From positions 1-39,739 of IMG/VR virus record IMGVR_UViG_3300033481_000004: DNA of 39,739 nucleotides. The stretch is one strand, 5' to 3'. Numbering within the stretch: position 1 is the first letter of the stretch; every line of letters begins with the position of its first letter. This document shows positions 162-39,304 of this stretch, piece by piece. The translations under genes were made by a program, and so were the position numbers. Below the pieces are notes generated by a model, which did no database searches, was not told the origin of the DNA, and saw nothing but the letters and a program-made list of their open reading frames with translations. Source of the DNA: a virus (lineage: Duplodnaviria; Caudoviricetes).

Positions 162-216
162 TGACAACCGCAGGCAATGTCAACCATTTGACAACCAAAT
201 TTTGACGCGTTGTCAA
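162..216. repeat. Putative integrase arm-type binding sites (left)
   Basis: TGACAACC (162), TGTCAACC (178), TGACAACC (189), inverted GTTGTCAA (209); related copies at 38171-38197. Confidence 0.6.
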
Positions 217-1484
217 ATGGAAGCTGCCTTTTCAAATATATCAACGCTTTTTGATGCCATAGAATCAGTGGCATGTACATAAGTCTGGAGCGTGGTACTT
301 ATATTTGAATGTCCTAGACGAGCCTGTACATCTTTGACATCTGCTCCATTTTCTATAAGCATTGTGGCGTGGGTGTGCCGCAAGGAGTGGTAGTCAAAGG
401 CAAGCTTTAACTCAGTGTGTATTATTCTGCTACAGTATTTAAAAGAATCTGTACTTACGTATTCACCATTATCACGAACGCATACCATTTCAACTCTTTT
501 TAATGTACATTCGATTGCGCGTTCAGCGGGTATTAAACGATATATTGTATTATTTTTTTCGTCTTTTTCCGGTTTAAGATAATGGTCTATATAATAATTT
601 CCATATTCTAGCCTGTTCTTTTTTTGCATCGTTTTTGCGTATTTTAATACATTATATAAAGTATCTCCAAATTTGATTGTACGATTTGAGCTTTCGGTTT
701 TTGGAGTTCCGAAATACCATGCCGATTTTTCTTCTTTTTTCCCTTTCTGCTCCATTACCCTTCTGATTTCAACACCGTAGTTTCTTTTTAGTATAGTCTT
801 ATTTACTGTAATTGTTCGATTTTCCATGTCTATATCTTCCCAGGTAAGCCCGAAAGCTTCACTTATACGCAATCCTGTATAATACCCTATCATAAGCGGC
901 AAGTAAAAAACATTTCCTTTCGGAAATCGCTCAATAATTAACTTAAATTCTTCTGGTGGAATAATATAGCGTTCTTTTGGTTTACGCTCAAATTTAGGCA
1001 TTCTGGCACGCGAACAGGGATTTTCTTTGATATATGCTAACGGCTCTATACCATATTCATAAGCAGCCGATAATACGGATAATATTCCAACAACTGATGA
1101 TCTTGACAACCCTTGCATTTTTAAACGATTAATATATTCTTGTATTGGAGCACTTGAAAGCGATTTTAATTTGTATTGCCCGAACTGCGGTTTTAGATGA
1201 TTTTCTATAATCTGCATATACGCAAGCTGGGTATTATATTTTAAATTTGTTTTACAGTAAATATCGAACCAATAATCCAGATAATCTGCTATGCTTAATT
1301 CTGATGGTGTAAAAGATTGACCCGAACTATTATATTCACTCATTGCCTGATTTCCAGCTTTTAACGCTTCCGATTTGGTCTTAAATCCTCCTTTTGATAT
1401 AGATTTTCTCTTACCTTCTATTTTGGCAGCTTCAAAGCTATATTGCCATGTTGATCCTCTTTTCCTGGTTCTCAATTCTCCCAT
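213..1484 (-). CDS. int: Tyrosine recombinase / phage integrase
   Basis: N-terminal arm-binding domain (KGGFKTKSEA), YTGLRISE, HSLRHTHAT, RLGHSNISTTLQTY catalytic motifs. Confidence 0.97.
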   Translation of the reverse strand: MGELRTRKRGSTWQYSFEAAKIEGKRKSISKGGFKTKSEALKAGNQAMSEYNSSGQSFTPSELSIADYLDYWFDIYCKTNLKYNTQLAYMQIIENHLKPQFGQYKLKSLSSAPIQEYINRLKMQGLSRSSVVGILSVLSAAYEYGIEPLAYIKENPCSRARMPKFERKPKERYIIPPEEFKLIIERFPKGNVFYLPLMIGYYTGLRISEAFGLTWEDIDMENRTITVNKTILKRNYGVEIRRVMEQKGKKEEKSAWYFGTPKTESSNRTIKFGDTLYNVLKYAKTMQKKNRLEYGNYYIDHYLKPEKDEKNNTIYRLIPAERAIECTLKRVEMVCVRDNGEYVSTDSFKYCSRIIHTELKLAFDYHSLRHTHATMLIENGADVKDVQARLGHSNISTTLQTYVHATDSMASKSVDIFEKAASI

Positions 1485-8424: not shown

Positions 8425-9051
8425 ATGGATAACGAAATTATTCAGGTAGAACAGGCAAAAGGGCTTTCAGTAGATGTATTTTCAAATCCTGAGAGTTTCC
8501 AGAAATTATATGATATTGGTAAAATGTTTGCTTCATCTTCACTGGTTCCACAGGCATACCAGCAAAAACCTATGGATTGCACCATAGCTGTTGATATGGC
8601 AAACCGCATGGGAGTAAGTCCTATGATGGTAATGCAGAATCTTTATGTTGTAAGAGGTAAACCCTCTTGGAGCGGTCAGGCGTGCACATCTATGATTATG
8701 GCAAGCGGAAGATTTAAAAATGTACATCACGAATACACAGGAGAAAAAGGAACTGATTCACGCGGATGCTATTTGCAAGCCGAAAGAGTTGAAGACCATG
8801 TGATTGTAAAAGGCCCGGAAGTAACTATTCAAATGGCAAAAGACGAGGAATGGTATTCGAAAAGCGGAAGCAAATGGAAGACAATGCCGGAGCTCATGCT
8901 TGCTTACAGGGCATCAGCATTCTTTGCAAGGGTCCATATACCAAATGCCCTTATGGGTTGCGCAGTAGAGGGTGAAGTAGAAGATATTACAAAAGAAAAG
9001 CCACAGCAAGCACCAGATGTATTTGCAGAGAGTAATGAGGTCCAGTCATGA
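8425..9051 (+). CDS. RecT-like single-strand annealing protein
   Basis: DCTIAVDMANRMGVSPMMVMQNLYVVRGKP...WKTMPELMLAYRA; adjacent to exonuclease. Confidence 0.7.
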   Translation: MDNEIIQVEQAKGLSVDVFSNPESFQKLYDIGKMFASSSLVPQAYQQKPMDCTIAVDMANRMGVSPMMVMQNLYVVRGKPSWSGQACTSMIMASGRFKNVHHEYTGEKGTDSRGCYLQAERVEDHVIVKGPEVTIQMAKDEEWYSKSGSKWKTMPELMLAYRASAFFARVHIPNALMGCAVEGEVEDITKEKPQQAPDVFAESNEVQS

Positions 9052-11046: not shown

Positions 11047-11838
11047 GTGGGAGAAGGAGGATTTGTAAAGTTCGACCGGAAGATTTTGGAGTGGGAGTGG
11101 TACAAAGATCGTAATACTAAGGACTTATTTTTTCACATGGTGTTTAAAGCCAATTGGAAAGAAGGAAAGTTTCAAGGGATAGACATTCCACGCGGTTCTT
11201 TCGTATCCTCCTACCCCAAATTATCTGACGATTTAGGGCTTACTATAAATGAGGTAAGAACAGCATTAAAGCACTTGCTATCTACCGGAGAAATCACAGT
11301 CAAAGCACACACTAAATTCAGCGTATTTACGGTAAATAATTACTGTGTGTACCAAGACATTAACAGCCAAATCACAGACAGATCACAGACAGATCACATT
11401 CAAATCACAGACGAATCACAGTCAATTAACAGTCAATTAACAACAATAGAAGAAGGTAAGAAAGAAAGAAGGAAAGAAGGTAAGAAGGTAAGAAGTAATA
11501 CATATACCGATCCTGCAAAGATACGTCATAAGAGAGGGGAATACGGACACGTGCTTTTGTCAGATGAAGAAGTTGAACGTCTTTCTGGTGACTACGGAGA
11601 GAATATGTCACGGCAGGCAATACAGTTCCTTGATGAATATATGCAGATGCACGGGAAGTCTTACAAGGACTGTAACCTTGCTATTAGAAAATGGGTTGTA
11701 GATGCAGTAAAGAAAAAAGAAACGGAGAAATATAAACCAGCCAACAGCCAATCAAGTAATCCGGTTGAAAAGCAGCAGCAAAGCCGAGATATGATGCTTA
11801 ATTGGGTGGCAGCAAAGGAGGCACAGAATGGAAATTAA
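11047..11838 (+). CDS. Phage replication initiator (lambda O/DnaD-like)
   Basis: GFVKFDRKILEWEWY...IPRGSFVSS winged-helix N-terminus; internal iterons. Confidence 0.85.
   Translation: MGEGGFVKFDRKILEWEWYKDRNTKDLFFHMVFKANWKEGKFQGIDIPRGSFVSSYPKLSDDLGLTINEVRTALKHLLSTGEITVKAHTKFSVFTVNNYCVYQDINSQITDRSQTDHIQITDESQSINSQLTTIEEGKKERRKEGKKVRSNTYTDPAKIRHKRGEYGHVLLSDEEVERLSGDYGENMSRQAIQFLDEYMQMHGKSYKDCNLAIRKWVVDAVKKKETEKYKPANSQSSNPVEKQQQSRDMMLNWVAAKEAQNGN
11359..11495 (+). repeat. Iteron array (probable phage ori) plus purine tract
   Basis: About eight 11-bp tandem units (AATCACAGACA, GATCACAGACA, ATTAACAGTCA variants) followed by repeated AGAAGGTA/AGAAAG. Confidence 0.75.
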
Positions 11839-14922: not shown

Positions 14923-15597
14923 ATGGCAGCACCTAACGGAAACCACAACCATTGGAAACATGGAGGATCCGGAACGAGACTGTATTTTATTTGGAAGACC
15001 ATGCGGCAAAGATGCAATAACCCCAACAACGGTAAATACAAAAGATACGGAGAAAGAGGAATCAAAGTTTGCCCGGAATGGGACGATTACTCGAACTTTA
15101 AAAGATGGTCAATATCAAACGGTTATTCTGAAAAATTAACAATTGACAGAATAGATACAAATGGGGATTATGAACCGTCAAATTGCAGATGGGCTGACGA
15201 TATTCAACAAGCAAACAATAAAACCAGTAATGTAATGATAAATTACAAAGGCGAAATTATGACAATGGCTGAGTTTTGCAGGAAAAACAATCTTAAATAT
15301 AAGATGTTTTCTAAATACAGAAAGCTTGGAATGCCCATTGAAGAATTAATTAAAAAAACAAAAGTTAACACCAAATTTATCGTAACAATGCAGAAAGGAA
15401 AAACTATGGAAGATTTAAAGTTAAAGCATATTGCCGGAATTATAAAAATTAACGGAAGGATATCTATTTACGAAGATGATTTCGGAACTTCATTTTGCCC
15501 TACGGTAGCGGATTTCAACCGATGTGCGGAAAGTTATGTTGTTGGAATATCTGCAAGCGAGGGAACGTTGGATATTCATATCATGAATGAAATTTAG
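14923..15597 (+). CDS. HNH homing-endonuclease-like protein read in frame into a separate downstream gene
   Basis: RLYFIWKTMRQRC...YGERGIKVC..W...TIDRID.NG.YEPSNCRWA..QQANN; HNH part ends near 15370. Confidence 0.8.
   Translation: MAAPNGNHNHWKHGGSGTRLYFIWKTMRQRCNNPNNGKYKRYGERGIKVCPEWDDYSNFKRWSISNGYSEKLTIDRIDTNGDYEPSNCRWADDIQQANNKTSNVMINYKGEIMTMAEFCRKNNLKYKMFSKYRKLGMPIEELIKKTKVNTKFIVTMQKGKTMEDLKLKHIAGIIKINGRISIYEDDFGTSFCPTVADFNRCAESYVVGISASEGTLDIHIMNEI
15406..15597 (+). CDS. Hypothetical 63-aa protein with own RBS (in frame with HNH ORF)
   Basis: AGAAAGGA RBS before ATG 15406 (MEDLKLKHIAG...). Confidence 0.6.
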   Translation: MEDLKLKHIAGIIKINGRISIYEDDFGTSFCPTVADFNRCAESYVVGISASEGTLDIHIMNEI

Positions 15598-15625
15598 GAA
15601 ATTAAACCCAAGGGAAGGTGATAAG

Positions 15626-15847
15626 ATGGGAAAATATCCATGGTCCGGTAAGCGGACATTAGATCATTGCAGTTTAATCACGGCAATGGGAAAGCCACAT
15701 CAGGCAAACGGAAAATGTGATGGCTTCCAGAAGTCAGAAGATAATGACGAACCATGCGAAACCTGCATGAACTGTAAGCTGAATACTTTTTATGATAAAA
15801 ATGATAACGAAATGGCAACTGATGAATATTTGAGAAGTGGTTACTAA
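15626..15847 (+). CDS. Cys-rich hypothetical protein
   Basis: AAGGTGA RBS before ATG 15626; GKCDGF...DEPCETCMNC. Confidence 0.7.
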   Translation: MGKYPWSGKRTLDHCSLITAMGKPHQANGKCDGFQKSEDNDEPCETCMNCKLNTFYDKNDNEMATDEYLRSGY

Positions 15848-15858
15848 ACCAAAGTTTA
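15845..15858 (+). repeat. TAAA-N6-TTTA boundary motif
   Basis: TAAA CCAAAG TTTA, begins at the stop codon. Confidence 0.65.
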
Positions 15859-15884
15859 ATGAATTTAGAGAATTAAAAATATCA

Positions 15885-15930
15885 GAAAGGACCGGAGCTC
15901 CAGCTGGGCAAGGTCATGACGGCTCCTTTC
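15885..15930 (+). promoter_or_regulatory. Leader hairpin enclosing two palindromes
   Basis: GAAAGGACCG...CGGCTCCTTTC around CCAGCTGG and GTCATGAC. Confidence 0.6.
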
Positions 15931-15939
15931 GGTAAAACA

Positions 15940-17091
15940 ATGAAAGAGACTTTTAAAAGCAAAGTATATACAGACCGTCCGGCATATGCGGACTTTGACG
16001 CACCGGCTAAATTTGAGGCTATAAAAAGCATTATTGCGAAAAGACTCAGGGAACACCCAAATGCGACATGCTCTTATTCAGGTGGGAGTGATAGCGATAT
16101 TCTTCTTCACATGATAGAGCAGGTACGCGAGACATTCGGCCTACCTCCAATCCATTATGCTTTTTTTAACACAGGACTTGAAATGGAAGCGATAAAGCGT
16201 CATGTGAGCGAAGTGGAATCACTGTATGGCGTAACGATTACCAGATACCGTCCAAAGAAAAATATCGTGCAGGCCACAAGGGAATATGGTCAGCCGTTTG
16301 TTTCAAAAATTATGTCAGCCGGGATAGAGGGCATACAGCGTAAAAATATACCGCTGTCAATACATAAGGAATACGAAGACGCAGAGGATAAAGCGGCAAA
16401 ACGAGAGGAACTTAAAAAACGCTATCCTGGGTGTGAAACAACGATTAATTTTTTGTGTTGCTGCAATTCCAAGGGAGAGCCAAGGCCAGATATTCAATTA
16501 GTCATAAATTCATCAAAGTATATGTTGGATTTTATAACTGATAATCCGATCCCATTTAATGTTAGTAACAAATGCTGCGACTATTGCAAAAAGCAGCTGG
16601 CGCACAGTGTTCAACAATCATTCGATATGGTAATAACGGGAGAGCGCAGAGACGAGGGTGGTATGAGATCCGTTCCACGAAAGGATAATACATCTATGTG
16701 CTTTTCTGAAACAGCCGACGGAAAGTTTAGGCTGCGACCCCTGTTTTATGTATCAGACGCGGATAAACAGTGGTACAAAAATTACTACAATATCCGTTAT
16801 TCAGATGCCTATGAGGTGTACGGCTTAACACGTACAGGGTGTTGTGGGTGCTCAATATCAGCAAAGGCAACGGAGGATTTGGAAAAGATAAAACCGTATG
16901 AACCAAACCTGGTTAAAGCCGCATGGAATGTGTTTGGTGACAGCTATAGATACCGCCAACAGTACAATTCATACAAAGCATTTAGGCAGGCATGGGATAA
17001 CGAGCAGAAGAAGACTGCCAATAATGAAATCAAAGGGCAAATGAAATTTGAGGATTACCCAGGGTTTATCCCGGAGAGCATGGTTAACTAA
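15940..17091 (+). CDS. PAPS-reductase-family (CysH/DndC-like PP-loop, Fe-S) protein
   Basis: SYSGGSDS PP-loop, FFNTGLE, KCCDYCKK, ITGERRDE, RTGCCGC; start 15940 or 15916. Confidence 0.85.
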   Translation: MKETFKSKVYTDRPAYADFDAPAKFEAIKSIIAKRLREHPNATCSYSGGSDSDILLHMIEQVRETFGLPPIHYAFFNTGLEMEAIKRHVSEVESLYGVTITRYRPKKNIVQATREYGQPFVSKIMSAGIEGIQRKNIPLSIHKEYEDAEDKAAKREELKKRYPGCETTINFLCCCNSKGEPRPDIQLVINSSKYMLDFITDNPIPFNVSNKCCDYCKKQLAHSVQQSFDMVITGERRDEGGMRSVPRKDNTSMCFSETADGKFRLRPLFYVSDADKQWYKNYYNIRYSDAYEVYGLTRTGCCGCSISAKATEDLEKIKPYEPNLVKAAWNVFGDSYRYRQQYNSYKAFRQAWDNEQKKTANNEIKGQMKFEDYPGFIPESMVN

Positions 17092-17102
17092 ATTAGGATT
17101 TA
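17089..17102 (+). repeat. TAAA-N6-TTTA boundary motif
   Basis: TAAA TTAGGA TTTA, begins at the stop codon. Confidence 0.65.
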
Positions 17103-17111
17103 ACTGAATAA

Positions 17112-17156
17112 GAAAGGAGGCGGAGTTTCCTAGGAAGATGCGCATCGGCTCCTTTT
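17112..17156 (+). promoter_or_regulatory. Leader hairpin enclosing two palindromes (second copy)
   Basis: GAAAGGAGGCG...CGGCTCCTTTT around TTCCTAGGAA and GATGCGCATC. Confidence 0.6.
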
Positions 17157-17162
17157 GAAAAC

Positions 17163-17594
17163 ATGAAAAAAATATTATTAGGAGGCAGTCCATGTACTTA
17201 TTGGAGCGTTGCCCAACATAACGGAAGAGAAACAGAACCTTCAGGCTTGGGGTGGGAATTGTTTTTGAATTATTGCATTGCCAAGCAAAGATTCAAGCCA
17301 GATTTCTTCCTGTATGAAAACAACGAAAGCGCAGCAGAAGCAATAAAGCAGGAGATAAGCAAAGAATTGGGTGTCGAGTTAATGCACATAAATAGCGCAT
17401 TGGTATCTGCCTAGGTAAGAAAAAGAATATACGCTATGAACTGGGAGTGCGAACAACCAATTGACAGGGAAATATACTTGAAAGATATTTTGGAAACGGA
17501 AGCACTTTGGCAGACAACCGAGAGTAGCAAAAAATCCCTAAGGGTAGGGCAGTTGGATAAGGGTAGCCAGGGAGATAGGGTTTATTCTATTTAA
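17163..17594 (+). pseudogene. DNA cytosine-5 methyltransferase pseudogene
   Basis: Motif IV GGSPC, VI YEN, VIII SA*VRKR with in-frame TAG at 17412-17414 replacing the conserved Gln; truncated at 17594. Confidence 0.85.
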
Positions 17595-17684
17595 ATTGCA
17601 GTCATGGACAGACGACAATGAACTTGAAGAATTAGACTCAGACATGGGCTGTCTAGCAATTCATGTTAATAAGGAGGAATCAAA

Positions 17685-17888
17685 TTGAAAAAGAAATTGT
17701 ATGAAGCAGGAACCGAAGTTATAAAAGTTATCGGAATATATGTTAACTTAATGGTTTTATTGTATGCGGTAGGAACTGGATTGGCACAGCCAGAACTTGG
17801 AACAGGGTTGCTGGTAGTTGCCACATTCTTGAATATCATGTTCAACATTGCAAGAAAGGGGCGTGGGCCATGGAAGAAAAGACAGTGA
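17685..17888 (+). CDS. Small two-TM membrane protein
   Basis: AAGGAGG RBS, TTG start, two hydrophobic stretches. Confidence 0.7.
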   Translation: MKKKLYEAGTEVIKVIGIYVNLMVLLYAVGTGLAQPELGTGLLVVATFLNIMFNIARKGRGPWKKRQ

Positions 17889-18127
17889 GCCTTGCAGAAA
17901 TGAAGCTGCAGCACATAGTTGAGGAAAGTAATTTCAACCGGAATAAATTGGATACTACGGAAACGAAGCTGGATCTGGTCATGAGCATAATCGACAACCA
18001 CATACAGACCCTTGATGATACATTCATAAAGACGCACGATGCCGAGACGAAGAAAATCACCTACCGCGTTGTGCAGGCTATGACGAACCTGAGAAAAGAC
18101 ATTGAAGCCAAGATAAGGGAGGAATGA
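17870..18127 (+). CDS. Hypothetical phage protein
   Basis: Packed ORF with RBS. Confidence 0.65.
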   Translation: MEEKTVSLAEMKLQHIVEESNFNRNKLDTTETKLDLVMSIIDNHIQTLDDTFIKTHDAETKKITYRVVQAMTNLRKDIEAKIREE

Positions 18128-18507
18128 ACGTAATGTGCAGGCATGAATATAAATTATACAATGTTTCTGAATATTACCCATTGGCAATGACAATATTTGC
18201 ACATTCAAAATATGATTTTGTATGTAAGCATTGTGGAAAAGAAAAAAGCATTAAGTCATTGGACCTTCAAGATGAATTAATGAAAGAAAAAGCGCGCCAG
18301 GCAAAAATAAAAGCAATGGATCCAAACTATCAGCAATGCACACCAGAAAAGCTAACAATAAAAATAAAGCCATCATCAATGGCAAAAGAATTTAGCGGTG
18401 GGTTTGTTAAGGCTGTAAAAGAAAAATATCTAAAAAAGGGAATTGATCTCAACGAAATAAACGAGAGAAATAGATACGGTCAGCACTTACTTGTAGAGGA
18501 GGATTAA
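18124..18507 (+). CDS. Hypothetical protein (CRHEY...CKHCG)
   Basis: Packed ORF, ATGA overlap. Confidence 0.7.
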   Translation: MNVMCRHEYKLYNVSEYYPLAMTIFAHSKYDFVCKHCGKEKSIKSLDLQDELMKEKARQAKIKAMDPNYQQCTPEKLTIKIKPSSMAKEFSGGFVKAVKEKYLKKGIDLNEINERNRYGQHLLVEED

Positions 18508-18509
18508 GT

Positions 18510-18788
18510 ATGTCAAAACCGACAATTTACATGGTATACGATAGCGAAAAAGGCGATGAAAGAATCGGCAGTTACAACTCGGAAGATGCGAGTAAGCTAC
18601 TGGGGATTAAACCGGATCACGTATCAACTTATGCAAGCTCTGGTAACAGATATAAAAGCAGATACTTATTTATCCCGGAACAGCATAAGCCAATGAGAAA
18701 CGGGATTGATGATGAAATGCTTCGTGACTGGGACTTTACCACAGAAGCTTTAAAGGCTATGGCAGGAGGTGGAAAGCGTGGTAGCTGA
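18510..18788 (+). CDS. Hypothetical small DNA-binding-like protein
   Basis: GAGGAGG RBS; EDASKLLGIKPDHVSTYA HTH-like segment. Confidence 0.6.
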   Translation: MSKPTIYMVYDSEKGDERIGSYNSEDASKLLGIKPDHVSTYASSGNRYKSRYLFIPEQHKPMRNGIDDEMLRDWDFTTEALKAMAGGGKRGS

Positions 18789-19236
18789 TAAAAACACATT
18801 CAGACAATTTGTATCTATCTGCAAAGAGATTGACGATGAAGAAACCAGAGTAAGAAAGTTACAGGATCAGATAGACACCATGCGCCCGCTGGAAAGAGAA
18901 GTAACTGACATTGTTACCAGAGGAAAGAGAGGGAAAAAGCCACTCGGTATCTGCAAGATACGGGGAAGTGAGGACCATCAGGAACTAAATAAGAAACGGG
19001 CTGAGTTAAGGGAAAGAAAGGCAAGGAAAGAACTTTCCATAGCACAGAGAGAAAAAGGCATCATAGAAGCCGAGGAATTCATTTATAGCCTTGAAGAGAG
19101 CGAAACTAGACGTATACTACTATTCTACTGCATAGACGGCATACGGACGTGGAAAGGGGTCGCAGAGGCTATGGGAGAGGGATACACGGCTGATATGTGC
19201 AAGCAGGCGTTTTCAAGGTTTATGCGTGCAAATTAA
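18778..19236 (+). CDS. Late transcriptional activator (RinA/ArpU-like)
   Basis: Coiled coil then RRILLFYCIDGIRTWKGVAEAMG...SRF HTH; sits at end of the early region. Confidence 0.75.
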   Translation: MVADKNTFRQFVSICKEIDDEETRVRKLQDQIDTMRPLEREVTDIVTRGKRGKKPLGICKIRGSEDHQELNKKRAELRERKARKELSIAQREKGIIEAEEFIYSLEESETRRILLFYCIDGIRTWKGVAEAMGEGYTADMCKQAFSRFMRAN

Positions 19237-19247
19237 ATTAGAATTTA
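19234..19247 (+). repeat. TAAA-N6-TTTA boundary motif
   Basis: TAAA TTAGAA TTTA, begins at the stop codon. Confidence 0.65.
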
Positions 19248-19254
19248 AAGGAGA

Positions 19255-19530
19255 TTGGAGAATATGGAAAAGGAAGAAGCAAAGTTAATTGTTAAAGAGT
19301 TTTTATGTGACTCTGATAAACTTAATTATACAAAAACAGAACAAGAAAAAACACCATTGAGAAAAGCTTTTGACATGTCTTATCGGGCACTATGCGTTCA
19401 AACAGATGAAATATCATTCACTGAAAAAGAAGTTAATAAAATAATGAACGCCATAATAAGCAGTTGCGTAGACACGACAAATGGCATGCAAGATAGATTG
19501 TTAAATCTATTAGAGAGACATGTAAACTGA
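19255..19530 (+). CDS. Hypothetical protein flanked by two boundary motifs
   Basis: ORF with AAAGGAG/GGAG RBS; start may be ATG 19264. Confidence 0.7.
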   Translation: MENMEKEEAKLIVKEFLCDSDKLNYTKTEQEKTPLRKAFDMSYRALCVQTDEISFTEKEVNKIMNAIISSCVDTTNGMQDRLLNLLERHVN

Positions 19531-19536
19531 AATTTA
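19523..19536 (+). repeat. TAAA-N6-TTTA boundary motif
   Basis: TAAA CTGAAA TTTA, contains the TGA stop. Confidence 0.65.
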
Positions 19537-19731: not shown

Positions 19732-19805
19732 CGGCGCATAGTTCAAATGGCAGAACAGCAGTATCGCCCCTGACTGTAATTCTGGTTCAAATCCAGATGT
19801 AGCCG
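19732..19805 (+). tRNA. tRNA-like element / pseudo-tRNA (no canonical anticodon loop)
   Basis: CGGCGCA acceptor strand, U8-A9, D stem GTTC/GAAC, stem GCAGT/ACTGT with 10-nt loop, T arm TCTGG-TTCAAAT-CCAGA. Confidence 0.55.
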
Positions 19806-34651: not shown

Positions 34652-35635
34652 ATGAATTACGACATTGAACTGAACGCAAATGACAGTTCGGTACTTGAAA
34701 CACAATACGCATTTACACAAGGGGATTACGGGCAGATTCAATTCAGTATCAGGGTGAAAACGGATGGCGTATACGTTACAAACGCACAGCGGGCATACAT
34801 TGTCTTTACACTTCCCAATGGCTACGTTGTAACCGGAGCTGATATGTCTAAAAGCGTTGCGACATATACATACCCATTTCAGGGTAGCGAATTACAGGTA
34901 CCTGGGATAATACTAGCCGATGTAAAACTCGTTTACACTAACGGGCAAATATCGTCTAATAAATTTTCTTTTATTTGCCGGTATGATCCATTGCATGATA
35001 AGTCATTTAATGCCGGCCCATACATTTCACAGCTACAACAGATTGTAGATGACGGGCAGGCAAAGATAGATTATTTACAATCGCTCATTGAAATATTGCA
35101 GACCGATGTCGGCGGAACGCCAGTAATGAGAAGCGATCTACACAATACACGTGATGCTGTTGCTGCAGGAACAAAAGCCGTTGACGCAAATATGGCGCAA
35201 AACATTTTACTCAAAGGTGACGTAACACATCAAAATGAAAACGATGCAAATAAAATTGTGGCAGCAGATGCTTTATATGCTGTAAAGACAAATTTACAAG
35301 GACAAATTGATACAACAGATGAAGAATTAACAACAATAACTAATAGCTTGACGGCATTAAATGCAAAGGAAATACAGTTTAAACCGAGCGTTAGCCCGGT
35401 TTTTGCATCAACAAATGACTTAGCTAGTGGCGCCGAAGTAATGTTTACTGTCACATTTGACAAAGCATTTAGTTCTGCTCCAACGGTTAATTTTACCTTG
35501 CGAGCAAATGGTGACAATTTTTTAACACAGGTAAACAGTATTTCAACAACCGGATTTACCGGATATATTCGAAATCCGTTTTCAACCGCAAAAGCAGTAA
35601 GCAGTGTCAGCTTATGCTATATTGCAATGTGCTAA
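34652..35635 (+). CDS. Receptor-binding/tail fibre protein (BppU-like N-terminus, H-type-lectin/gp53-like C-terminus)
   Basis: FTQGDYG N-terminus; C-terminal VTFDKAFSSAPTV...ISTTGF...YIAM. Confidence 0.75.
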   Translation: MNYDIELNANDSSVLETQYAFTQGDYGQIQFSIRVKTDGVYVTNAQRAYIVFTLPNGYVVTGADMSKSVATYTYPFQGSELQVPGIILADVKLVYTNGQISSNKFSFICRYDPLHDKSFNAGPYISQLQQIVDDGQAKIDYLQSLIEILQTDVGGTPVMRSDLHNTRDAVAAGTKAVDANMAQNILLKGDVTHQNENDANKIVAADALYAVKTNLQGQIDTTDEELTTITNSLTALNAKEIQFKPSVSPVFASTNDLASGAEVMFTVTFDKAFSSAPTVNFTLRANGDNFLTQVNSISTTGFTGYIRNPFSTAKAVSSVSLCYIAMC

Positions 35636-35646
35636 ATTGCTATTTA
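35633..35646. repeat. TAAA-N6-TTTA boundary motif at end of tail fibre gene
   Basis: TAAA TTGCTA TTTA, begins at the stop codon. Confidence 0.6.
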
Positions 35647-38482: not shown

Positions 38483-38556
38483 GGCACTTCCACGGATGAC
38501 ATAGGATAGTTGAAGGCAAAATCGGTCCAAATTGTTTTTATAGATAGGAAAAAGTA

Positions 38557-38632
<76 letters not shown>

Positions 38633-39204
38633 AAACGGTAAGCCGCAGGTATGAACGCTTGTGGCTTAAATCATAATTTATAGGGACGGGACACTTGATA
38701 GATCAAGGTAAAAAAAGGTATATTTTTCAATTTTAATATGGGTCATTGTCTGACGACGCACTAAGGCAGTGAAATATAAATCATACGGTATGCACGAGGA
38801 TCATCTTCATATAGGCAGGGGTGACAATGACAGCAACCCGTATGAACAAATTTCATAAGCTTTTCATACGTTGAAAATACTGATTAACAAAACATGCAAT
38901 AATGGATGGGCCTAATACATTTTCAAAATAACGAAAAGTACCGTTAGAGGATATTTTATTATCTTGCTTAGCAAGAAAAGGTTTTACCACCAATTTGGAA
39001 CTCCGTTGATATTTAAAACAAAAAGGATAAATCTATGGAAATTCCAAACAAAACTATTTACAATAATTGAAATGATTAAACCACGATTTTGCGGCAGACT
39101 ATAACACGCTTAGTTCCAATTTTACGAAGGAGCAGGGCGTGTTTTTATATCCAAAAACAGAAATGGAGTAATACAAGTGGTAACTAACTATCGTAAGCGC
39201 TTAC

Positions 39205-39304
39205 GATAGTTGAAGGCAAAATCTTTCCAAAGTGCTTTTAGAGATAGGGTAAAGGATGGGATATACCTCTGCAAGGTGAACGCTTAAATGCCGTTCAAGA
39301 GGTC
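39205..39304 (+). pseudogene. Decayed duplicate of 38505-38604 including 5' part of tRNA-Ala
   Basis: GATAGTTGAAGGCAAAATC...CGCTTAAATGCCGTTCAAGAGGTC aligns at 700-bp offset; T arm lost. Confidence 0.7.

What the first reader, a model, noticed from the sequence alone, without database searches (positions are those of the whole stretch)
15366..19536. Candidate phage gene-cassette system: TAAA-N6-TTTA sites at accessory gene boundaries
Seen: a 14-bp motif with inverted 4-bp arms and a 6-bp spacer sits exactly at gene ends. Exact copies: TAAA-CCAAAG-TTTA (15845), TAAA-TTAGGA-TTTA (17089), TAAA-TTAGAA-TTTA (19234), TAAA-CTGAAA-TTTA (19523). Near copies: TAAC-ACCAAA-TTTA (15366) and ATGA-ATGAAA-TTTA (15583). 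The four exact spacers are all YYRRRR, so the sites are asymmetric and co-oriented. Each overlaps a stop codon (except 15366, see fusion) and is usually followed by the next RBS, giving promoterless one-gene units. I did not see it at the ends of core replication or head genes. A few random matches are expected in 40 kb of AT-rich DNA, but not repeatedly on stop codons. Known: tyrosine recombinases use inverted arms around 6-8 bp directional spacers, and integrons array promoterless cassettes. Inference: an integron-like cassette acquisition system in these phages. No dedicated recombinase is in the window and the att core has a different 7-bp geometry, so the enzyme would act in trans or have been lost.
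Basis: partly seen in the sequence, partly recalled or inferred. Interest (0 to 1): 0.85.

Follow-up and report, generated by a model that had tools for sequence, protein, structure and literature searches.

The report
Minimal gene-swap sites in Clostridia phages
A 14-base DNA word marks the points where this prophage and its relatives swap small optional genes, and a mobile element of gut Clostridia has the same kind of word at its own ends, so the word is likely a recombinase docking site that is probably used by an enzyme supplied from outside the phage.

Summary
The motif is real: 10 exact copies against 2.6 expected. The near-copies at 15366 and 15583 are not swap points.

In related phages the sites cluster at the end of the early operon. 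Junctions with a site are swapped in about 80% of cases, against about 45% for nearby junctions without one.

No phage recombinase tracks the sites. However, a roughly 6-kb mobilizable element with a tyrosine integrase, found in Lachnospiraceae-family genomes, has this site at its ends (30 of 37 right ends). It sits in many different target sites with variable spacers, and one empty target has the same 14 bases as window site 19523. Host chromosomes carry related sites around single genes, including lnu(C).

Best reading: tyrosine-recombinase core sites used in trans (0.55). Main rival: RecT-driven microhomology (0.27). Not an integron, pdif module or PeSL. Not found in ten literature searches. 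The scan noted the phage motif before on other DNA; the link to the element appears new.

The parts
15603..15616 (+).
   Evidence: L031 similarity ends at 15609 and L002 begins at 15600; an X5 contig ends at 15606, X6 and X11 begin at 15616-15617
15845..15858 (+). Swap site overlapping the stop of 15626-15847
   Evidence: L002 and X11 end at 15850, X1 and X3 at 15859; X8 begins at 15846 and L082 at 15856
17089..17102 (+). Swap site overlapping the stop of the PAPS-reductase-like gene; empty form of a site that is filled in L085
   Evidence: L085 has one extra gene between two sites here; L005 begins at 17099, X1 and X3 at 17098; X13 ends at 17092, X8 at 17103 and 17107
17592..17605 (+).
   Evidence: X6 begins at 17592 and X8 at 17594
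19234..19247 (+). Swap site overlapping the stop of the regulator gene, followed by an RBS
   Evidence: X1 and X3 contigs end at 19237; PWM score 14.9
19523..19536 (+). Last site of the array; same 14 bases as the empty target of a mobilizable element in L140/L165
   Evidence: An X1 contig begins at 19531
15366..15379 (+). Very degenerate copy inside the HNH fusion; perhaps a relic, not a current breakpoint
   Evidence: PWM score 2.7; contigs run through it; fusion shown by PHROG domains
35633..35646 (+). Exact copy on the stop of a tail-region gene, outside the array
   Evidence: an equivalent site in G001, G002 and G003; swapping not tested
14923..15597 (+). HNH endonuclease fused to a 63-aa accessory gene
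   Evidence: phrog_3377 at aa 12-163 and phrog_29188 at aa 162-224
15626..15847 (+). One-gene cassette, 73 aa, no family
   Evidence: Shared with L002 at 89% from site to site
15916..17091 (+). One-gene cassette, PAPS-reductase-domain protein
   Evidence: PF01507; 47 relatives in varied contexts
17163..17594 (+). Broken C5 DNA methylase remnant between two sites
   Evidence: PF00145 partial match; premature stop at 17412-17414
18778..19236 (+). Transcription regulator at the end of the early operon; the family most associated with site-rich genomes
   Evidence: phrog_36; present in 10 of 15 site-rich and 1 of 12 site-poor genomes
19264..19530 (+). One-gene cassette, 88 aa, no family
   Evidence: Bounded by sites 19234 and 19523; no homolog among 33 genomes
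8425..9051 (+). RecT-like ssDNA annealing protein, the enzyme of the main rival explanation
   Evidence: phrog_561, E 1.8e-58
213..1484 (-). Prophage integrase, the only tyrosine recombinase in the window; its likely att core is a different 9-bp repeat at 156 and 38119
   Evidence: PF00589; 29% identical to the element's integrase

Best explanation
The 14-base motif marks gene-swap points in Clostridia temperate phages and is likely the core site of a tyrosine recombinase that probably acts in trans, with the integrase family of a roughly 6-kb mobilizable element as the best candidate so far. Shown: swaps map to the site; the left arm travels with the upstream gene and the last base with the downstream gene; partners usually share the first four spacer bases; the element has this site at its ends and at its targets. 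Inferred: the enzyme binds the AAA and TTT arms and exchanges strands across the 6-bp spacer, tolerating some mismatch. Inferred: site-by-site recombination between co-resident phages or within one genome inserts, deletes and replaces promoterless genes at the end of the early operon, where the built-in stop codons and the following RBS keep each new junction expressible. Inferred: new genes are captured at chance look-alike sites, and misaligned exchanges give the doubled-spacer sites. The identity of the enzyme on phage arrays is untested (about 0.3 for this family).
For: Six window sites coincide with breakpoints in relatives or contigs, with one empty/filled pair. De novo EM on 389 junction windows, seed sites excluded, recovers the motif. 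With seed sites excluded, junctions with a site are variable in 31 of 39 upstream clusters and 34 of 42 downstream clusters, against 92 of 204 and 88 of 205 nearby without a site (p 9e-5 and 6e-6). One downstream gene joins 14 different upstream ends exactly at the site (seed-selected set). The left arm is A-rich even inside coding DNA: 66/75/80% in 44 sites against 32/32/44% in 1167 controls, and the arms do not covary, which argues against a hairpin. In 42 of 59 same-upstream pairs the second mismatch comes by position 17, shorter than the 23-27 bp quoted for Red-beta (PMC3945230, passage). The element carries a relaxase, excisionase, HTH protein and 432-aa integrase. It has the site at 30 of 37 distinct right ends, against 55 of 1297 control windows, and at 17 of 23 ends among the 67-80% identical homologs. 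Six copies with 98-100% identical integrase sit in six different targets with varying spacers. 24 of 30 element junctions score 9 or more on the phage-derived matrix. The empty target of L936 in L140/L165 has the same 14 bases as window 19523.
Against: No copy of the element was found inside a phage early array; L140/L165 and L892 are viral records, but the sites lie outside the array. The commonest phage spacers (TTAAGA, TTAGGA, TTAACA) were not seen among the element's junctions. No cassette gene was shared between phage arrays and 306 chromosomal, metagenomic or other viral loci. Phage cassettes are too short to hold the element's accessory ends, so exchange would be core-only (inferred). 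Many indels in the same regions occur at RBS microhomologies without the motif, and about 45% of nearby motif-free junctions are also variable. 17 of 59 same-upstream pairs share sequence into the RBS, as does the L085 insert. Left arms are often poor. Pairs are not independent, and five of the 37 element ends were first found by a motif search.
Confidence: 0.55

Rival explanations
1. The motif is a stop-plus-ribosome-loading linker kept for gene expression. Because many junctions share motif plus RBS (about 14-25 bp), the phage's RecT-type annealing protein recombines them by microhomology, with no site-specific enzyme.
For: A RecT-like gene is in the window. Spacer positions 5-7 are a stop triplet in 114 of 128 sites, and 77 of 128 sites end 10-19 bp before a start codon. 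Partners usually share the spacer (83-87% against 26-28% at random). Motif-free RBS microhomology indels are common. The four bases between site and RBS vary even for the same gene pair.
Against: Shared identity is mostly below the Red-beta minimum. The left arm is selected inside coding DNA. Sites also occur with no gene following (19523), inverted on both sides of single genes, and at the ends of an integrase-bearing element whose targets share nothing beyond the site.
Confidence: 0.27
2. A phage-encoded tyrosine recombinase acts on the sites: either the Xer-like 330-345-aa gene often found just after the arrays, or the prophage integrase. Phages that lack the second gene borrow it from co-resident prophages.
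For: Many arrays are followed within 0.2-2 kb by a co-oriented tyrosine recombinase. The geometry fits a tyrosine enzyme.
Against: These genes belong to several families only 20-35% alike. By my count-8 of 13 SSB-selected phages with such a gene have three or more sites, against 6-7 of 15 without one. Near-complete site-rich genomes lack it (G000, G001, G011, G019, G022). The window integrase's likely core is a different repeat.
Confidence: 0.13
3. The motif is a protein-binding or RNA-processing signal (for example for the adjacent regulator) and merely lies at gene boundaries where swaps are tolerated.
For: It is co-oriented with transcription and confined to the end of the early operon. The regulator family tracks site-rich genomes, 10 of 15 against 1 of 12.
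Against: Breakpoints fall inside the 14 bases, and junctions with a site are swapped more than neighbours without one. There is no hairpin covariation. The same geometry forms the ends of an integrative element.
Confidence: 0.05

Closest known systems
Integron cassette arrays and CALINs, including those in phages (Qi et al. 2023, PMC9892861; abstract and outline seen)
   Same: Arrays of promoterless single-gene units separated by a recurring site; integrase often absent in cis.
   Different: 14-bp double-stranded-type site with no attC hairpin or R boxes; no IntI; spacer matching is usual; Clostridia hosts.
PeSL cassettes of T4-type phages (Arbiol et al. 2010, PMC2839356; abstract and section 14 read)
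   Same: A repeated intergenic motif from stop codon to RBS at which phage accessory genes are shuffled.
   Different: PeSLs contain a sigma-70 promoter and a terminator stem-loop and form mini-circles. This site is 14 bp, with neither element at the junctions, and circles are not shown.
Tn916/Tn1549-type conjugative transposons and Tn6218 (PMC5812530, PMC12229494, PMC3914685; passages read)
   Same: The element found here has a tyrosine integrase and excisionase, many target sites, and short variable spacers at its junctions, like coupling sequences.
   Different: Tn916-family junctions read TTT-coupling-AAA, the reverse of AAA-N6-TTT. The spacer here has a consensus. The integrase matches Tn1549 Int only weakly, whereas Tn6218 Int is 65-75% identical to Tn916 Int (supplement rows). 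The element has a MobA/MobL relaxase, where Tn6218 has rep.
pdif modules of Acinetobacter plasmids (recalled, no paper read)
   Same: Single genes flanked by inverted recombinase-type sites with a 6-bp centre, as in the chromosomal version of this site.
   Different: No conserved 11-bp XerC/XerD arms; information is confined to 14 bp; phage arrays are co-oriented.
Relaxed homologous recombination by Rad52-like annealases (De Paepe et al. 2014, PMC3945230; passages read)
   Same: Generates mosaic temperate-phage genomes; a RecT-like gene is present here.
   Different: Needs about 23-27 bp of identity and no particular sequence; does not explain arm selection or the element ends.

Membership tests
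Integron / CALIN | attC sites with R''-R' boxes forming a bottom-strand hairpin | tested here: not met
   0 attC-like box pairs in 14.9-19.7 kb on either strand; no arm covariation
Integron / CALIN | Integron integrase IntI | tested here: not met
   TIGR02249 far below its cut-off for the window integrase, the element integrase and two array-adjacent recombinases
Integron / CALIN | Array of swappable promoterless single-gene units | tested here: met
   no plus-strand promoter-like match at the sites; only part of the window region is one gene per unit
Integron / CALIN | Excised circular cassettes | not testable with these tools
   Only assembled contigs were available; no back-joints listed
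pdif / Xer modules | 28-bp site with 11-bp XerC and XerD arms | tested here: not met
   Little information outside the 14 positions apart from the RBS; definition recalled
pdif / Xer modules | Inverted sites flanking single genes | tested here: inconclusive
   Seen in chromosomal loci such as L625, L641, L642 and L643; not in the phage arrays, which are co-oriented
PeSL cassettes | Sigma-70 promoter plus terminator stem-loop inside the repeat | tested here: not met
   No plus-strand promoter or terminator match at the sites
Tn916/Tn1549/Tn6218 family (for the mobilizable element) | Junction geometry TTT-coupling-AAA | tested here: not met
   Junctions read AAA-N6-TTT, against the ends given in PMC12229494
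Tn916/Tn1549/Tn6218 family (for the mobilizable element) | Integrase closely similar to Tn916 Int | tested here: inconclusive
   No direct comparison made. Weak match to Tn1549 Int chains; apart from one 67% hit, listed plasmid hits are 30% or less
Tn916/Tn1549/Tn6218 family (for the mobilizable element) | Many target sites with non-identical spacers at the two ends | tested here: met
   Six near-identical copies in six targets; left and right spacers differ in L626, L932, L933 and L936
Tyrosine-recombinase core site | Two inverted arms around a 6-8 bp asymmetric spacer, with crossover inside the site | tested here: met
   the left arm is weaker than the right
Tyrosine-recombinase core site | Binding and strand exchange by a named enzyme | not testable with these tools
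   Needs a reporter or in vitro assay

The most novel reading that the evidence does not exclude
Clostridia have their own integron equivalent: one family of minimal AAA-N6-TTT sites, worked by a widespread mobilizable-element integrase, that shuffles single genes in phage early operons and in chromosomes and conjugative elements, including resistance genes such as lnu(C).
Probability: 0.3. Interest if true: 0.92.

Novelty: new variant of a known kind. Interest (0 to 1): 0.72.

Why it matters
How temperate phages gain and replace single accessory genes cleanly at gene boundaries is an old question, usually answered with illegitimate or relaxed homologous recombination. Here a defined 14-bp site marks the swaps across many Clostridia phages, and a candidate enzyme can now be tested on a two-site reporter. 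If the chromosomal sites belong to the same system, it would also explain how gut Clostridia assemble single-gene cargo, including lnu(C), without integrons. A 14-bp, mismatch-tolerant site would be a compact engineering tool for these bacteria.

Tried and rejected
Unseeded motif discovery on all BLAST segment ends returned only coding-composition noise. Raw end histograms peak at the motif but include seed-selected sites, so they were not used as a test.

Pinning the crossover from parent triples was inconclusive: true parents are unknown and the bases before the RBS vary.

A dedicated recombinase in cis was rejected as necessary. Presence/absence over 27 genomes found no enzyme common to site-rich phages.

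The genome-wide pattern scan gave mostly chance hits. A hotspot that looked recombinase-adjacent lies next to an adenine deaminase. The 20-copy repeat in G252 is a palindromic repeat with no recombinase nearby. No cassette was shared between phage and chromosomal loci.

The regulator gene found no viral relatives by direct search, and GenBank phages gave only distant hits. No raw reads were available; contigs cannot show circles. Rfam finds only two tRNAs. The two hairpin leaders fold no better than shuffles (z about -1.2).

Literature: ten searches. The two with literal motif strings returned only listings on unrelated topics. Subscription papers and bioRxiv supplements are not covered. Figure S5A of PMC3914685 (Tn6218 ends) could not be seen. 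A position-by-position spacer profile of the element's junctions was not computed; spacers are given as printed. A resemblance to XerS/XerH dif sites is recalled only and was not tested.
Full report
Observation. The window is a 39.7-kb prophage record with its integrase at the left end, an early operon, then packaging and tail genes. TAAA-N6-TTTA occurs 10 times against 2.6 expected, and 0 of 100 shuffles reach 10. TTTA follows TAAA at +10 ten times and at most four times at other offsets.

Breakpoints in the window. Relatives fetched by SSB and by the PAPS-reductase-like protein (127 loci) share DNA in blocks. L002 shares the 73-aa gene from the degenerate site at 15603 to within the spacer at 15845. 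L031 ends inside the 15603 site, and L005 begins at the right arm of 17089. L085 carries one extra gene between two sites where the window has one; its flanks also resemble each other through the RBS. Contigs from seven public runs end or start at 15606, 15616, 15846, 15850, 15859, 17092, 17098, 17103, 17592, 17594, 19237 and 19531 (the tool's tables were cut). They also break at motif-free places such as 18127 and 18790, and they run through 15366.

Other phages. Of 119 viral loci with one exact variant, 49 have a gene stop nearby on the motif strand, mostly at offsets 0, +5 and -8. De novo EM on 389 junction windows from 56 loci, seed sites excluded, recovers wAAW-YTRRRA-TTTR. In 33 genomes read nearly whole, the sites cluster mainly within 1.5-5 kb at the end of the early operon, with up to 14 in one array. 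After dropping 19 duplicate loci of 287 and excluding seed sites, junctions with a site are variable in 31 of 39 and 34 of 42 clusters. Nearby junctions without one are variable in 92 of 204 and 88 of 205, and distant ones in 116 of 376 and 126 of 381. One gene is preceded by 14 different gene ends exactly at the site and another by 9; the first set was selected by the motif. Many other indels use RBS microhomology without the motif.

Anatomy. In 128 sites selected on the inner nine bases only, the left arm is still A-rich, including 44 cases where it is coding DNA (66/75/80% against 32/32/44%). The outer bases do not covary. The left arm follows the upstream gene (76% against 51% identical) and the last base follows the downstream gene (89% against 64%). 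The first four spacer bases match in 83-87% of swap pairs against 26-28% at random (pairs are not independent). Doubled-spacer sites peak at 8-bp spacing (17 cases). The spacer nearly always contains a stop triplet.

Enzyme in cis. Arrays are often followed by a co-oriented tyrosine recombinase, but of several unrelated families. Site-rich near-complete genomes without one exist, and I count 7-8 of 13 against 6-7 of 15 phages with three or more sites when the gene is present or absent. No other enzyme tracks the arrays; the adjacent regulator does. The window's integrase likely uses a different 9-bp core at 156 and 38119. The window encodes a RecT-like annealase.

The same geometry in hosts. 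The motif plus RBS occurs in 37 of 151 genomes of the family of a Lachnospiraceae MAG, against 11 with the reversed control, and in 21 of 101 against 5 in a second family. Some single genes are flanked by inverted copies; one is 92% identical to lnu(C). One upstream flank joins several different downstream sequences at the site.

A candidate enzyme in trans. A roughly 6-kb element with a MobA/MobL relaxase, excisionase, HTH protein and 432-aa tyrosine integrase is bounded by two co-oriented sites. Related DNA was found in 64 of 301 family genomes, many hits being short. Of 37 distinct right ends, 30 carry the site 105-150 bp after the integrase match, against 55 of 1297 control windows; one locus was dropped as too short. 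Five ends were first found by motif and the DNA query included the end, but 17 of 23 homologs at 67-80% identity also have it. Six near-identical copies sit in six targets with differing spacers. The target of L936 is seen empty in L140/L165, with the 14 bases of window site 19523, beside a prophage integrase and not in an early array. Of 30 junctions, 24 score 9 or more on the phage matrix. The commonest phage spacers were not among them, no element was found in a phage array, and no cassette was shared between the two settings. The link is therefore one of geometry and partial sequence overlap, not of demonstrated activity.

Mechanism. Most likely the sites are tyrosine-recombinase cores used in trans (0.55). 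Exchange within the spacer joins one gene's stop to another gene's RBS, so every product is expressible. The main rival is RecT microhomology on a shared linker (0.27). Most partners share less than the 23-27 bp reported for Red-beta (PMC3945230, passage), but 17 of 59 share more, and RecT-type events clearly could add to the pattern.

Comparison with known systems. It works like an integron array or PeSL shuffling, but fails the tests for attC, IntI, PeSL and 11-bp Xer arms. The element behaves like Tn916 in using many targets with variable spacers (PMC5812530, passages), but has the reverse junction geometry (PMC12229494, passages). It is unlike Tn6218 in gene content (PMC3914685, passages and two supplement tables). 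PMC5704250, PMC8138268 and PMC5125667 were seen as passages only and did not describe this site in those passages. Ten literature searches found no description; coverage is limited to open papers. Earlier notes of this scan report the phage motif and a chromosomal version on other DNA, with the enzyme unknown. Two look-ups for the element returned nothing matching.

Verdict. A real, widespread, apparently undescribed gene-swap site with a testable candidate enzyme. Interest 0.72; new variant of a known kind.

Noticed in passing
window 17110-17160 and 15885-15932; L005, L085, L081-L084, L108, L122: A recurring leader that begins with an RBS-like word and ends in its complement precedes methylase-like and PAPS-reductase-like genes and travels with them. 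It folds no better than shuffles, but the ends recur in relatives.
   Followed up: partly
G252 (L604-L621): A multi-copy palindromic repeat whose ends are two inverted copies of the site around a small hairpin; 20 pattern hits in one genome, no recombinase nearby.
   Followed up: partly
L641:7992-8530; L767: A lnu(C) gene lies between two inverted sites; the copy in the ISSag10 element on plasmids keeps look-alike sites on both sides.
   Followed up: partly
L626:1867-7960, L724, L932, L933, L936: A mobilizable element family with AAA-N6-TTT ends and many targets, which I could not match to a named element.
   Followed up: yes
window 35633-35646; G001, G002, G003: A site on the stop of a tail-region gene, shared by relatives; it may mark tail-module exchange.
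   Followed up: no
window 19733-19805: A weak tRNA match (31 bits) in the intergenic region before the late operon.
   Followed up: no
window 38502-38604 and 39202-39304: Two 103-bp copies, 81% alike; the first overlaps the tRNA at 38557 and the second looks like a decayed copy.
   Followed up: no
window 11352-11497: 11-bp and 8-bp tandem repeats inside the 263-aa gene, probably the replication origin.
   Followed up: no
L051, L053, L057, L076: Two or three Xer-like recombinase genes in tandem upstream of SSB in site-poor phages.
   Followed up: no
L646, L672, L707, L709, L716, L734, L749, L758: A chromosomal site downstream of an adenine deaminase gene is joined to several different downstream sequences in different metagenomes.
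   Followed up: partly
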